Shown here one piece after another: positions 1 to 64,000 of a stretch of 64,000 nt of DNA (positions are counted from its first letter, which is position 1; each line of letters begins with the position of its first letter). Position numbers: made by a program. This stretch comes from Thalia democratica (Eukaryota). The DNA is taken from positions 57,226,001-57,290,000 of the forward strand of contig OZ241832.1 of assembly GCA_965202585.1 (NCBI GenBank). Reading direction: 5' to 3'.

Positions 1-3000
1 GAAATATTTTGAGCGCTTTTTTTTTGTCGTTTAATAAAAAATTATAATCAATAAAATATTTGTAAAACCTCAACTTCTCGCAGAAAGTCATGTGGGCGTA
101 CGGTAATAATGGAATATCTAGCTTTTATAGACGTTAACATTATATTTTGTTGTTGATTAGTGTGTTTTTAAAATTGTTTTCTACTTAATAAAACAATGCA
201 ATGAGTTTGAAGACATTTTTTATTTAAAAAGTTCTTTAAACATTTTATTGAATATAGATGCCTTAGCTTCATTTGACGCCAATTCATAAAACCTCGAAGC
301 TTTAATCATCAGAGTTGCAACGTTCTATCAGTATTACTCGTTGTAGTTTAGTATTTTCGATTAGCTTTAAGAAGGCTTGAAGTTTAAATTTTTCCTTATA
401 AAGATGCACCCTAACCTACAATCAATAAAATTTCTATATAAACTTCTCGCGCAGCAAGTCATGTGGAACGCGCGAAGTGCCGCCCTGCTCATAGTGCTGT
501 GGGCGTACGGCGTGGACCAGGCCATGCTGGCCAACTACCTGTTCTGGTACGCGGAGAGCAAGCTGCGGGCGTCGGGGACCGTCCTGGGCGTCAGCGTCCT
601 CGCGGGAACGGTGGTCGCCCTGCCCGTGTTCGCGTTCAACAGCAGGGTGATCAGGAAGCTGGGCTGTGACGTCATAATAAGCCTCACCATGGTCAGCTTT
701 GCAGTGAGTTTGAGAATTGACTTATTTTTTCGTTTACGAAAGTACATAATAAATACAAAAATTTTCAAATTTGTTACAATTTATAAAAATAATTTACGTC
801 TAAAAAACTTCTGACATTTTTAAGCCGTTTAGTCTGCTATTGAAGTATGTGTTATTATGTTATTTTTTATAAACTTGCATTAATTTAGCACTTTTTTCAA
901 GTTTATTTTATTTTCTATAAAAACTATACTGTTTCCTTCCAAAGTTTTTAAAGTAAACAAAAAAAATCTTTAATATTTCAGGTAAGGTTTTTCCTGTACA
1001 CGATCATAAGCCAATCGTGGATGCTCATTCCGATGGAAATAATATTTCGTCCAATCAGCTACGCCCTGGCTTGGACCACGATTTGCATAAAAGCTTCCAA
1101 CATTTCGCCCAAAGGTCTCGAAGCCACCACCATGGCCATCGTGTACACGACGACGAAAGTTATCGGTAAATTAATTACTATCTAAAGAAAAATAAATTAC
1201 TAACAATACTAACGAAATAGCAACTTTTATATAAATAAGTCAAGTTTAAATATTTTTATATAGATAAAAGTTAATGATTATGTCGTTAGCTGTTACTTTT
1301 TCGTAAATCAATAAAGAAATAATCGTTAAACTTTAGAAAAATTAAACAGAAAATAGAAAATAGTTATTTTATAGATCAATCTTCCTTAAATAAAAAAGTG
1401 CGAAGAAAGCTTCCTTTATTTAAAAAATGAAAATTTTGTTTCAGGTTCAGGAACTGGTGCAGCGATAAGCGGCAAAATATTTCTGGACTACGGCGGGGAT
1501 TTTCTTTTCCACTCGATGGCGCTGATGAGCTTGGTGGCGGGGATTTCCTACCAGTGCTTCATACTGGTTGCAAACAAAACTAAAAAGAAAAATGTGAACA
1601 ATAACGACCCGGTGAGTTTTACATTTTGTTTCTATTTTTGAAGTTGAAGAAATATGAGTTGCTTACAAAATGAGTGTTTCATTTCTCAAAAGTTTTTATG
1701 AAATCGACGCAATGCACTTTAGTTTAGATTTAATTTTGTTTGTTTTTATAGGTAATTTCTGTTGTATAAAGTGGCTTCTTTTCAAACACTAAATTTTATA
1801 ATAAGTTTCAATAAAGCTACTTATAATTGTTTTAGTTTTAAATTTTTCAAAGTGTATAAATTTCATTACTGCACTTATATTGTTTTAGTTGACGGTGTTT
1901 TTAACTCATTAAAATAAAAAAATAACTAACTAATATTATTTTAATTAACAGGTCGAAGAGAAAAACACAAAACCACTGATATAAAACGAAAGAACTTTTG
2001 TTTTTATTACAACAATCATATCCATTAATAACACAGTTGTTCTGTATGTACGATCTGTTTTAATTTCTATTATAAATGTACATGGAAAATAATTAAATTA
2101 AGAATTACGACGTTTTTAAAAAATTTAAAAATTTCTTTATTTTTTATCAAAAATTAAATGCAGCATATTTTATATTTACATACGGAAGTAATTTTCGAAA
2201 AAAAAGCCATTATTGAACAGTTAATAGACCTAATTTTTTTAAAATTTAATTTAAATACTACTTTTTTATATCTGCATTGCTTTTTATAAAACTTTTTAAT
2301 GTTCTTCTACACACTCGTGCAATTCGCAATAATCTTTGTTTGTTTTACGCGTTTTATTCTAAAATAAAGCAAACAAGAAAACTGAATAAACGTAAAAAAT
2401 CTGAAAAAGTTTTACGAGTTTAACTGCATCACAATGCAGCTAAACGAGAATAATAAACAAAATTAATGATTAGAAAAAAAAAACAAAAGTTTAAAATGAA
2501 ATGCTTGTGGACTTTAGAAAAATGTTTCTGTTATAAAAAGTTAAGCAAATAGTTATATCTATTAAAATACTACTTGATTTTTTATATCTTAGAAAGCTTT
2601 TTCAATAGAGTTACTTGAAAACTTTGTATACGTAATAACTTTGTAATATTAAAAAAAATGTTTTTGCAAAAAAATAAAATCGATATAAAAGTATATGATG
2701 AAAATAAAAGTTATTTAAAAAAACCTAGACAAAGTTTTATGGAGTTTAAAAAAGGTGTAAGCATGTTTGTAATTTATTAGAAGCAGATGAGCCAAATAAA
2801 ACTTATAATTTTTTTCTAATTTGTTCCTACAAATACTTAACTTGATTTGAAAAAAAAAAAACATCGTGTGATAAACAGAAAAAGAAGAAAAAGTATTGAT
2901 AAATAAAAGCTGTAAATATGGTTAAGCTTTCAAAAATTTTGCTAGCAGAAGAAATTGATTCTCAAAGCAAAAATAGAAAAAGTTTAAAATCAAAACGAAA

Positions 3001-62800: not shown

Positions 62801-64000
62801 ATTATTTTTTGAGATATGACCGGTCAAAGTCGGGCCGCATAATATGTTCCCTATGGGAAGGTAAAACTAAAACAGCGAAAAAAGACCATTTTATTTAAAA
62901 TCTATCTCCTACATTTTTCAAGCTATCTTCTTCAAACTTTCACAGTCTAATCTTTATACAATAACAAAAAAACGTTGTTTTGGAATTAAAAAAAAAATGA
63001 TTTTTTTTTATTTTGCAAAAAAAACACTTTTATTTTATTTTTGTGATAAAATTTTTATTTTCTTTTCAATACTAAAATTCTAAAGTAACGTTTTTTTCTT
63101 TTACTATAAGGAACGTTTCCTGAAAATTTGAAGAAAATTGCTTGAAAAATGAAGGAGGAGATAGATTTTTAGTGAATTTTTAAATTTCCGAGAAAATTGA
63201 CCCCAAAAAATTTGCGGTCCATACGTTTATATAGGAAAATTAAAATAAAAATTAAATATCTCAAAAGTTAAATAAAATTTTTAATTCTATAAAAACTGGC
63301 ATGGAGTTTTCATATAAAAGCTAAAGTTAATTTTTGTAAAAAAAAAAAATGTTGGACCCCCCTATGGCCTTAACAAACTAACAAATGAGTTGGTGATTTA
63401 TTTTGCATGGGTTGTGTTGGAATACTGGATATTTACTAACAAACTAACAAATGAGTTGGTGATTTATTTTGCATGGGTTGTGTTGGAATACTGGATATTT
63501 ATTAACAAACTAACAAATGAGTTGGTGATTTATTTTGTGTGGGTTGTGTTGGAATACTGGATATTTATTAACAAACTAACAGATGAGTTGGTGATTTATT
63601 TTGTATGGGTTGAGTTGGAGTACTGGTAGCTGAAGGTGCAGGCATCTTCAGTTTGCTGACAACAATCCTGTTCACTTCTTCCGACTGTTTGAAACATAAA
63701 TATATTAATAACTTTTTAGAGATAGTCAGATACAAGTTCTTAAATTAAAAACTTACCTGCTAAAATTTATATAGTAAAATAAATTATTGATTATTTTTTA
63801 ATTTTTTTTGAGAACTACTTGCAACTTTTTATATGAAAACAGTTAATAACAATTATTTTATTAAACGCTTTTATCTTTGTTTATTTTAAACTAGACAATT
63901 CAGTATTAAAACCAACAGGTTTTGAGTTAACATATAAAATTTTGCCAAGCATATCATCTACCAAAAACTTCAAAAAAATTAAAACAAGCTTTGTTTCATT

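What the first reader, a model, noticed from the sequence alone, without database searches (positions are those of the whole stretch)
72..63600. Recurrent 'splice-site echo': exon edges copied into adjacent introns in three unrelated genes
Short copies of an exon boundary (about 10-50 nt of exon plus its splice site) sit in the flanking intron. Examples: MFSD6-like (72-103), Wnt exon 3 (~5725, 5935, 6305), and nine liprin-beta boundaries (~49240, 50450/50636, 52710, 53170-54245, 54580, 56185-56945, 58076/58146, 61655, 63372-63580). Most keep the AG or GT. Duplications this consistently centred on splice junctions suggest a junction-focused duplication bias or selective retention. This could be a route to intron growth, microexons and duplicated exons such as the SELENOF pair. 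The mechanism is inference.
Basis: partly seen in the sequence, partly recalled or inferred. Interest (0 to 1): 0.68.

Follow-up and report, generated by a model that had tools for sequence, protein, structure and literature searches.

The report
Exon-edge copies inside neighbouring introns
Short tandem duplications that straddle exon-intron junctions have left silent copies of exon ends and their splice sites inside introns, a kind of repeat already known from human genes such as F7 but unusually dense in one gene here.

Summary
I mapped exons one at a time with near-identical unnamed proteins. A 40-nt probe across each junction was compared with its own intron, against 150 null blocks. 14 of 46 junctions have an echo at P<1e-3: 11 of 27 in liprin-beta, 1 of 10 in Wnt, 1 of 7 in MFSD6-like and 1 of 2 SELENOF-like donors. 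Two more were found.

The echoes are tandem or near-tandem duplications whose first unit spans the junction. 26 of 29 liprin copies keep GT or AG. Use of any of the 29 would give an in-frame stop within 3-22 codons, so they are silent intron filler. They make up about 76% of one intron.

Junction-spanning events are over-represented in liprin-beta (6 of 7, 8 of 10 or 11 of 16 events; P about 1e-4 to 5e-6 under uniform placement). A 3-6-fold advantage in survival or detection of exon-anchored copies would explain this without a mutational hotspot.

The kind is known: minisatellites whose first monomer spans an exon-intron boundary (human F7, CBS, 6-16, LMNB2, PDGF). Generality could not be tested.

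The parts
43..98 (+). Echo of the MFSD6-like exon M1 acceptor (real junction 454/455). It holds about 38 nt of intron, the AG and about 20 nt of exon, lies 374 nt upstream, and lacks an internal stretch of the exon part.
   Evidence: P=1.6e-5; alignment 417-472 to 43-98
5656..6332 (-). Echoes of the Wnt exon 3 acceptor (real exon start 5560) at 5656-5669, 5724-5744, ~5925-5945 (weak) and 6305-6332. All keep AG. The copies are closer to one another than to the exon.
   Evidence: (P=5.5e-4); TRF array 5581-5669, period 45
34505..34946 (-). 41-nt tandem array of 10.7 copies that begins at the donor of the SELENOF-like Sec exon a (last exon nt 34952). Each unit starts with a donor-like G|GTTGTA / GTTATA / GTTTAT.
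   Evidence: P=2.2e-5
49193..49279 (-). Echo of the liprin-beta exon L donor (exon end 49361). It holds 31 nt of exon and about 56 nt of intron; the unit is 112 nt. GTGAGT has changed to GAAGGT.
   Evidence: 87 nt, 88.5%; P=6e-10
49996..50035 (-). Echo of the exon K donor (exon end 50173), 32/40 identical, GT lost.
   Evidence: (P=6.6e-5)
50445..50654 (-). Two echoes of the exon K acceptor (exon start 50340), at 50445-50480 (AG kept) and 50636-50654.
   Evidence: (P=8.6e-10)
52182..52749 (-). Echoes of the exon I donor (exon end 52850): 52711-52749 (34/39), plus weaker copies at 52343-52373 and 52182-52207. All keep GT.
   Evidence: (P=4e-12)
53166..54423 (-). Nine echoes of the exon I acceptor (exon start 53046). 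The unit is 153-154 nt (35 nt exon + ~118 nt intron). A block of about 735 nt (53016-53573 / 53750-54302) was duplicated again. AG is kept in 9 of 9.
54577..54606 (-). Echo of the exon H donor (exon end 55004), 25/30 identical, GT kept, 420 nt into the intron.
   Evidence: (P=9.7e-7)
56025..56052 (-). Echo of the exon G acceptor (exon start 55824), 22/28 identical, AG kept.
   Evidence: (P=8.2e-4)
56154..56941 (-). Six echoes of the exon F donor (exon end 56969). Units are 52-62 nt next to the exon and more widely spaced further out. GT is kept in 5 of 6. Identity to the exon copy tends to fall with distance.
   Evidence: (P=5e-12)
58063..58171 (-). Two echoes of the exon D donor (exon end 58212), units 62-70 nt, GT kept in both.
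   Evidence: (P=3.4e-8)
61647..61661 (-). Short echo of the exon C donor (exon end 61692), 14/15 identical, GT kept, 34 nt downstream.
   Evidence: (P=2.5e-4)
63370..63626 (-). 66-nt tandem array of 3.9 copies. The first unit is the last ~46 nt of exon A plus the donor and 20 nt of intron (exon end 63581). All three intronic copies keep GTTAGT.
   Evidence: 95% matches; P=9e-16

Best explanation
The echoes are ordinary small tandem duplications, some later expanded into minisatellites, whose unit happened to span an exon-intron junction.

Such a duplication leaves the mRNA unchanged as long as the splicing machinery keeps using the exon-side site: the most upstream donor or the most downstream acceptor. 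The extra copy then simply becomes part of the intron and lengthens it.

The excess at junctions over intron-only duplications is most economically explained by unequal survival and visibility:
- The exon copy is held constant by selection and cannot be deleted.
- The GC-richer exon-derived piece stays alignable.
- The AT-rich intron part of the unit decays or is reshuffled quickly.

Shown here: the duplications, their anatomy, their excess over uniform placement in liprin-beta, and that using any echo site would be non-productive. Inferred: which site is used in this organism, and the cause of the excess.
For: Anatomy:
- TRF and self-BLAST find head-to-tail units whose first copy contains the junction: 63370-63626, 53012-54250, 56834-57003 and 34505-34946.
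- In the young families the intron part of the unit is as well conserved as the exon part.

Silence: all 29 liprin echo sites would bring an in-frame stop within 3-22 codons.

Exon models: the exon-side sites give a frame that stays open through all the liprin exons (last two exons revised). Each exon matches P0121 at about 89-100% once the parts of the hits that run past the splice sites are set aside.

Fast turnover of the AT-rich part:
- In the older echoes (I donor, K, H, G, Wnt W3) only the exon-derived 20-40 nt plus a few intron bases still align.
- The spacer beside the I-donor echo itself holds young 11- and 14-nt micro-duplications.

Size of the effect needed: an odds advantage of 3-fold (young events) to about 6-fold (all strong events) brings the counts to P>0.05.

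Age, and evidence against an artefact:
- At the two residues where the window's exon differs from P0121 inside echo-covered segments, the nearest echo carries the P0121 residue (2 of 2).
- A TTAA-flanked element with inverted ends sits inside the exon-A array.

Precedent: boundary-spanning minisatellites with silent pseudo-donors in human F7, CBS, 6-16, LMNB2 and PDGF (PMC1557585; abstract and passages read).
Against: - Under uniform placement the excess is strong: 6 of 7, 8 of 10 or 11 of 16 events span a junction, P about 1e-4, 2e-5 and 5e-6.
- It persists for young, full-unit events, where differential decay should matter least: 5 of 7, P=1.3e-3.
- A 3-6-fold retention advantage is my estimate of what is plausible. 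It was not measured.
- Donors are hit more often than acceptors in liprin-beta (8 of 13 against 3 of 14). Retention alone predicts this only if upstream decoy acceptors are more harmful.
- Almost all events lie in one gene. The remaining ~32 kb scanned has a single strong array. This is unexplained.
Confidence: 0.6

Rival explanations
1. Splice junctions, or the sharp GC-rich/AT-rich boundaries they coincide with, are mutational hotspots for small tandem duplications in this genome. Possible causes are polymerase pausing or transcription-replication conflicts at sites of co-transcriptional splicing.
For: - Junction-spanning events exceed uniform expectation.
- Junction probes hit more often than intron probes outside the anchored repeats: 12 of 37 against 20 of 326, P=1e-5. 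GC-matched intron probes (GC>=0.30) hit in 4 of 72.
- The excess holds for young events.
- The exon F echoes tend to be less like the exon the further out they lie (57/65 nearest, 43/55 farthest). This fits repeated new copies arising next to the exon.
Against: - Only one gene shows it densely. Wnt has 1 of 10 junctions and MFSD6-like 1 of 7.
- The raw comparison with all intron probes is weak: 12 of 37 against 74 of 427, P=0.044.
- Breakpoints are not fixed relative to the junction, and I saw no microhomology at unit ends (by eye).
- A modest retention advantage suffices.
- Five literature searches found no report of such a hotspot.
Confidence: 0.2
2. The echoes are kept by selection as auxiliary or decoy splice-site clusters. 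For example, extra U1 landing sites could help the unusually weak GTT-type donors, or decoys could tune intron retention.
For: - The splice dinucleotide is kept in 26 of 29 liprin echoes. Many donor hexamers are identical to the real one: GTTAGT x3 and GTTTGT x5.
- 11 of 21 real donors have T at +3. Recalled, not from a call: this is a poor match to the usual GTRAGT.
- Old echoes keep just the exon edge plus the splice site.
Against: - Keeping GT or AG in 26 of 29 is not clearly above what 85-90% identity predicts, and copies within an array are not independent.
- AATAAA is not depleted on the sense strand of introns (92 sense, 100 antisense), so there is no U1/polyadenylation signature.
- Three echoes have lost the site (K donor, L donor, one F copy).
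- No cross-species conservation could be tested.
Confidence: 0.12
3. The copies are assembly artefacts: mis-collapsed or mis-expanded repeats, or haplotypes placed in tandem.
For: Tandem repeats are error-prone in assemblies. No reads were available to check.
Against: - Copies differ by 5-20% and in indels.
- Fourteen independent loci in four genes are involved.
- An element with inverted ends is inserted within one array.
- Echo copies carry the residue seen in an independent protein, P0121, where the exon differs.
Confidence: 0.04

Closest known systems
Minisatellites whose first monomer spans an exon-intron boundary: human F7 IVS7 (37 bp), interferon-inducible 6-16, CBS intron 13, LMNB2 (100 bp), PDGF intron 4 (81 bp). 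Source: Borensztajn et al. 2006, PMC1557585 (abstract and passages read).
   Same: - The tandem unit contains the last bases of the exon plus the donor, so the authentic donor is followed by identical pseudo-donors inside the intron.
- Unit sizes (37-100 bp) overlap those here (41-154 nt).
- In F7, LMNB2 and PDGF only the most upstream site is used. The exon models here imply the same.
   Different: - Here many junctions of one gene carry such repeats (11 of 27).
- Acceptor-side arrays occur too (nine copies upstream of exon I).
- Several echoes are single or dispersed copies, not arrays.
- Neither splice-site use nor copy-number polymorphism could be tested in this organism.
Internal tandem repeats at exon-intron boundaries in human segmental duplications. 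Source: De Grassi and Ciccarelli 2009, PMC2812944 (passages read).
   Same: Minisatellite-sized units at exon-intron boundaries that change intron structure.
   Different: Those cases create new introns or alternative transcripts that retain the repeat. Here the repeats sit in pre-existing introns, and any use would be non-productive.
[quoted passage not shown] Sources: review PMC3443670 (section 8 read); Hellsten et al. 2011, PMC3265369 (search listing only).
   Same: A small tandem duplication supplies duplicate splice signals, and the extra copy is spliced out.
   Different: In that model the duplicated unit is exonic and a new intron is born between the two copies. Here the unit already contains intron sequence and an existing junction, so an old intron is lengthened rather than a new one created.
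Tandem exon duplication giving mutually exclusive exons (recalled concept, no paper read).
   Same: The SELENOF-like gene has two copies of the Sec-encoding exon about 1.5 kb apart.
   Different: The echoes are partial exons with only one splice site. They are not whole exons.

Membership tests
Boundary-spanning intronic minisatellite (F7 IVS7 type) | Head-to-tail tandem array of at least two units in an intron | tested here: met
   TRF: 63370-63626 (66 nt x3.9), 53012-53519 and 53748-54250 (153-154 nt x3.3 each), 56834-57003 (52-62 nt), 34505-34946 (41 nt x10.7). Not met for the single or dispersed echoes (C, G, H, K, L, I donor, Wnt, MFSD6-like).
Boundary-spanning intronic minisatellite (F7 IVS7 type) | First monomer contains the exon-intron junction | tested here: met
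   Junctions come from exon-by-exon protein mapping plus GT/AG. The alignments cross the junction.
Boundary-spanning intronic minisatellite (F7 IVS7 type) | Splice-site sequence reiterated in the intronic monomers | tested here: met
   GT in 15 of 18 donor echoes and AG in 11 of 11 acceptor echoes of liprin-beta.
Boundary-spanning intronic minisatellite (F7 IVS7 type) | Only, or mainly, the authentic exon-side site is used in mRNA | tested here: inconclusive
   The exon-side sites reproduce the protein P0121, which comes from an unnamed source and another genome or allele (about 89-100% identity per exon within exon bounds). Any echo use gives a stop. No RNA data from this organism.
Boundary-spanning intronic minisatellite (F7 IVS7 type) | Copy-number polymorphism (VNTR) | not testable with these tools
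   Only one haplotype is in the window. No reads or other assemblies were reachable.
Intron gain by tandem duplication of an exonic AGGT segment | The duplicated unit is purely exonic and the new intron lies between the two copies | tested here: not met
   Units contain 17-118 nt of intron sequence, and the copies lie inside existing introns.
Tandem exon duplication / mutually exclusive exons | Whole exon with both splice sites duplicated and reading frame preserved | tested here: not met
   Echoes carry one splice site and 2-46 nt of exon, and all 29 give early stops. Met only by the separate SELENOF-like Sec-exon pair. I counted 61 and 64 nt by eye; the acceptors were not verified.
Recursive splice site (ratchet point) | An acceptor AG directly followed by a donor GT | tested here: not met
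   Echo acceptors are followed by exon-like sequence, for example CAG|AATCG and CAG|CTGTG.

The most novel reading that the evidence does not exclude
In this AT-rich, probably tunicate genome, exon-intron junctions are either true hotspots for small tandem duplication or sites where duplicated splice signals are kept by selection, for instance to support the unusually weak GTT-type donors. Junction echoes would then be a main, directional motor of intron growth rather than a by-product.
Probability: 0.2. Interest if true: 0.65.

Novelty: new member of a known kind. Interest (0 to 1): 0.4.

Why it matters
As it stands, this is a clear non-human set of examples of a known curiosity: repeats that reiterate a splice site inside the intron.

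Three things give it value:
- It shows concretely how introns can grow by hundreds of bases without touching the mRNA.
- It offers natural test pieces for how a spliceosome chooses among up to ten near-identical sites, on the acceptor side as well as the donor side.
- One gene has echoes at 11 of 27 junctions.

If a genome-wide count confirmed a junction excess among young duplications, that would bear on the open question of what drives intron size change. From one window that claim cannot be made.

Tried and rejected
- Chance: rejected. 14 of 46 junctions have P<1e-3, where about 0.05 are expected, and the rest have P>=0.026.
- General copying of exon sequence into introns: rejected. Exon-internal probes hit in 2 of 88 tests, and both hits are parts of edge echoes.
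- Productive alternative splice sites or microexons: rejected for liprin-beta. 29 of 29 give early in-frame stops.
- cDNA or processed-RNA origin: rejected. Echoes continue into intron sequence past the junction, not into the next exon.
- Recursive splice sites: no AG|GT.
- U1/poly(A) strand asymmetry: AATAAA is 92 sense against 100 antisense in 20.5 kb of introns, so no signal. The GTTTGT excess on the sense strand (37 against 10) is inflated by the arrays themselves.
- Microhomology at unit ends: none seen by eye. Not tested formally.
- Donor weakness against presence of an echo: too few sites to test.
It is weak because about 50 of the 74 intron hits lie inside the junction-anchored repeats.
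- The 40702/40946 repeat is a dispersed element, not a local duplication of a junction. I did not work it out further.
- Gao and Lynch 2009 could not be read because it is not held. I know it only through the review PMC3443670.
- One literature search failed on term syntax.
- Five literature searches found no report of a junction excess of tandem duplications.
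Full report
**What the window is.** It is 64 kb with no N and 27% G+C, with much GC-richer exons. I do not take it for human. Its intronless CTU1 gene (38405-39544, minus strand) has a 97% identical unnamed match. In a single-gene tree it falls in a supported clade (95/90) with the four named tunicates. That tree used 39 hand-picked hits out of the 120 listed, plus the window protein, and its labels were typed. The organism is therefore probably a tunicate without a close named relative in that set.

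**Gene models.** Each search returned a near-identical full-length protein from an unnamed source, which I aligned to the window with tblastn. Junctions were fixed by GT/AG and frame.
- Liprin-beta, minus strand, 14 exons A-N between 48354 and 63684 (P0121).
- Wnt, minus strand, 6 exons between 3562 and 10742 (P0123).
- MFSD6-like, plus strand, last 4 exons between 455 and 1984 (P0124).
- SELENOF-like, minus strand, supported by a Sep15_SelM match at 32300-32554 (E=3.8e-13) and by two copies of a TGA-containing exon.

- 12 of 37 liprin and Wnt junctions have P<1e-3, and the other 25 have P>=0.026.
- 1 of 7 MFSD6-like junctions and 1 of 2 SELENOF-like donors are also significant.
- The Wnt copy at ~5935 is weak against the exon but matches the 6305 copy 18/19.
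- Exon-internal probes hit in 2 of 88 tests, and both hits are deep parts of edge echoes.
- So what is copied is the exon edge with its splice site, not exon sequence in general.

**Anatomy.** There are two classes.
- *Young, full-unit tandem repeats.* Intron and exon parts are equally conserved in these.
  - Exon A donor: 66 nt x3.9, 95% matches.
  - Exon I acceptor: 153-154 nt units, nine intronic copies, with a block of about 735 nt duplicated again.
  - Exon F donor: 52-62 nt.
  - Exon L donor: 112 nt.
  - Exon D donor: 62-70 nt.
  - The 41-nt x10.7 array that starts at the SELENOF-like Sec-a donor.
- *Older or shorter echoes.* These are the I donor, K donor, K acceptor, H, G, C and Wnt W3. 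Only the exon-derived 15-40 nt and a few intron bases still align.

The exon part of the unit is 2-46 nt, and 22-36 nt in nine events. Its share of the unit is about 0.03-0.7. The duplications therefore span junctions but are not centred on them.

**Would echo sites work?**
- GT is kept in 15 of 18 donor echoes and AG in 11 of 11 acceptor echoes of liprin-beta.
- Reading from the real exon to any echo donor, or from any echo acceptor to the real exon, meets an in-frame stop within 3-22 codons in 29 of 29 cases.
- They cannot give productive isoforms or microexons.
- They do lengthen introns. The repeat span 53012-54542 is about 76% of intron H-I (1957 nt). The F-donor copies spread over 56154-56968 of the 1144-nt intron F-G.

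**More than chance placement?** Four results bear on this.
- Annotation-free self-BLAST finds seven local direct-repeat families in liprin-beta apart from TA microsatellites, and six span a junction.
- Each event was placed uniformly in the gene, excluding placements wholly inside an exon or swallowing a whole exon. The expected number spanning a junction is then about 1.2 of 7. The observed 6 of 7 has P=1e-4, 8 of 10 strong events has P=2e-5, and 11 of 16 events has P=5e-6.
- For the young full-unit events alone, 5 of 7 has P=1.3e-3.
About 50 of those 74 lie inside the junction-anchored repeats.
  - Outside those repeats the rate is 20 of 326 (P=1e-5), and these 20 come from five events.
  - Among intron probes with GC>=0.30 it is 4 of 72.

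Results that cut the other way:
- The exclusion of probes inside the anchored repeats is partly circular.
- All tests are post hoc.
- The effect sits in one gene. The other ~32 kb scanned has one strong array (the SELENOF-like one), one dispersed element and two weak hits.

**Why the excess?** I favour unequal survival and visibility.
- The exon copy cannot decay or be deleted.
- Deletions near an exon that would reach into it are purged.
- The GC-richer exon-derived fragment stays alignable while AT-rich intron sequence is reshuffled. For example, the spacer next to the I-donor echo holds young 11- and 14-nt micro-duplications.
- An odds advantage of 3-fold (young events) to about 6-fold (all strong events) lifts the counts to P>0.05. 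I consider that attainable but have not measured it.

A true junction hotspot or selection for decoy sites is not excluded. Evidence leaning towards selection:
- The splice dinucleotides are kept and many hexamers are identical to the real one.
- 11 of 21 real donors have T at +3.

Evidence against selection:
- Keeping GT or AG in 26 of 29 copies is not clearly above what 85-90% identity predicts.
- There is no sense-strand depletion of AATAAA (92 against 100).

An assembly artefact is unlikely:
- Copies differ by 5-20%.
- An element with 36-nt inverted ends beside TTAA lies within the exon-A array.
- At the two residues where the exon differs from P0121 inside echo-covered segments, the nearest echo keeps the P0121 residue.

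**What is known.**
- Borensztajn et al. 2006 (PMC1557585; abstract and passages read) describe the human F7 IVS7 37-bp minisatellite, whose first monomer spans the exon 7-IVS7 boundary. They list 6-16, CBS, LMNB2 and PDGF as further cases.
  - The pseudo-donors are functional but silent, because the most upstream site is chosen by a 5'-to-3' scanning process.
  - That is the same kind of object.
- De Grassi and Ciccarelli 2009 (PMC2812944; passages read) describe tandem repeats at exon-intron boundaries that remodel introns.
- The review PMC3443670 (section 8 read) covers intron gain by tandem duplication. That model differs because its unit is exonic.
- Five searches found no report of a junction excess of small duplications.
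- Gao and Lynch 2009 was not held. Paper supplements were closed and not consulted.

**What stayed unchecked.**
- No further DNA of this genome could be reached.
- No reads and no RNA data were available.
- Generality, polymorphism, real splice-site use and conservation therefore remain open.

Noticed in passing
18640-25434 (minus-strand ORFs, e.g. 22029-25496): A 27-nt tandem array of 251.8 copies, open on the minus strand for up to 1155 aa of TTTKSTTLP-like repeats. It looks like a mucin-type coding repeat and causes the strong GC skew at 18-26 kb.
   Followed up: no
33442-33516 and 34941-35012, minus strand: Two copies of the SELENOF-like exon carrying the in-frame TGA (ILEVCQ-TGA-KLGRYPQVQ and ILEMCD-TGA-QFRKYPQVA). 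I counted 64 and 61 nt by eye, which gives the same phase, so they look like mutually exclusive alternatives. The acceptors were not verified.
   Followed up: partly
62695-63377: An element of about 650 nt with 36-nt inverted ends (GGCCATAGGGGGG...) next to TTAA on both sides. It looks like a piggyBac-type MITE inserted into the exon-A donor array. A degenerate further array copy seems to lie on its far side at about 62676-62700.
   Followed up: partly
56449-56666: A near-perfect palindrome (104-nt arms, 93% complementary, 10-nt loop) flanked by TA microsatellites, lying among the exon-F donor echoes.
   Followed up: no
all 21 mapped donors (listed): 11 of 21 donors have T at intron position +3 (GTTAGT, GTTTGT, GTTTTT, GTTATT, GTTGTT). 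Recalled, not from a call: the usual donor consensus has a purine there.
   Followed up: no
59253-61318: An intron-only duplication with an offset of about 1.1 kb in liprin-beta intron C-D (three aligned pieces, 77-87% identical). It is the main local duplication that does not touch a junction.
   Followed up: partly
63485-63560 and 49249-49278: Where the window's liprin-beta exon differs from the related protein P0121 (I for T in exon A, Q for H in exon L), the intronic echo encodes the P0121 residue. The echoes therefore predate these exon changes.
   Followed up: yes
liprin-beta echoes, 48.8-63.7 kb: In nine events the exon part of the duplicated unit is 22-36 nt, although unit lengths range from about 60 to several hundred nt. 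This could reflect detection limits or selection against longer exon pieces. It is unexplained.
   Followed up: no
48354-63684 against the rest of the window: Local direct duplications are concentrated in the liprin-beta gene. About 32 kb scanned elsewhere gave one strong array, one dispersed element and two weak hits.
   Followed up: partly
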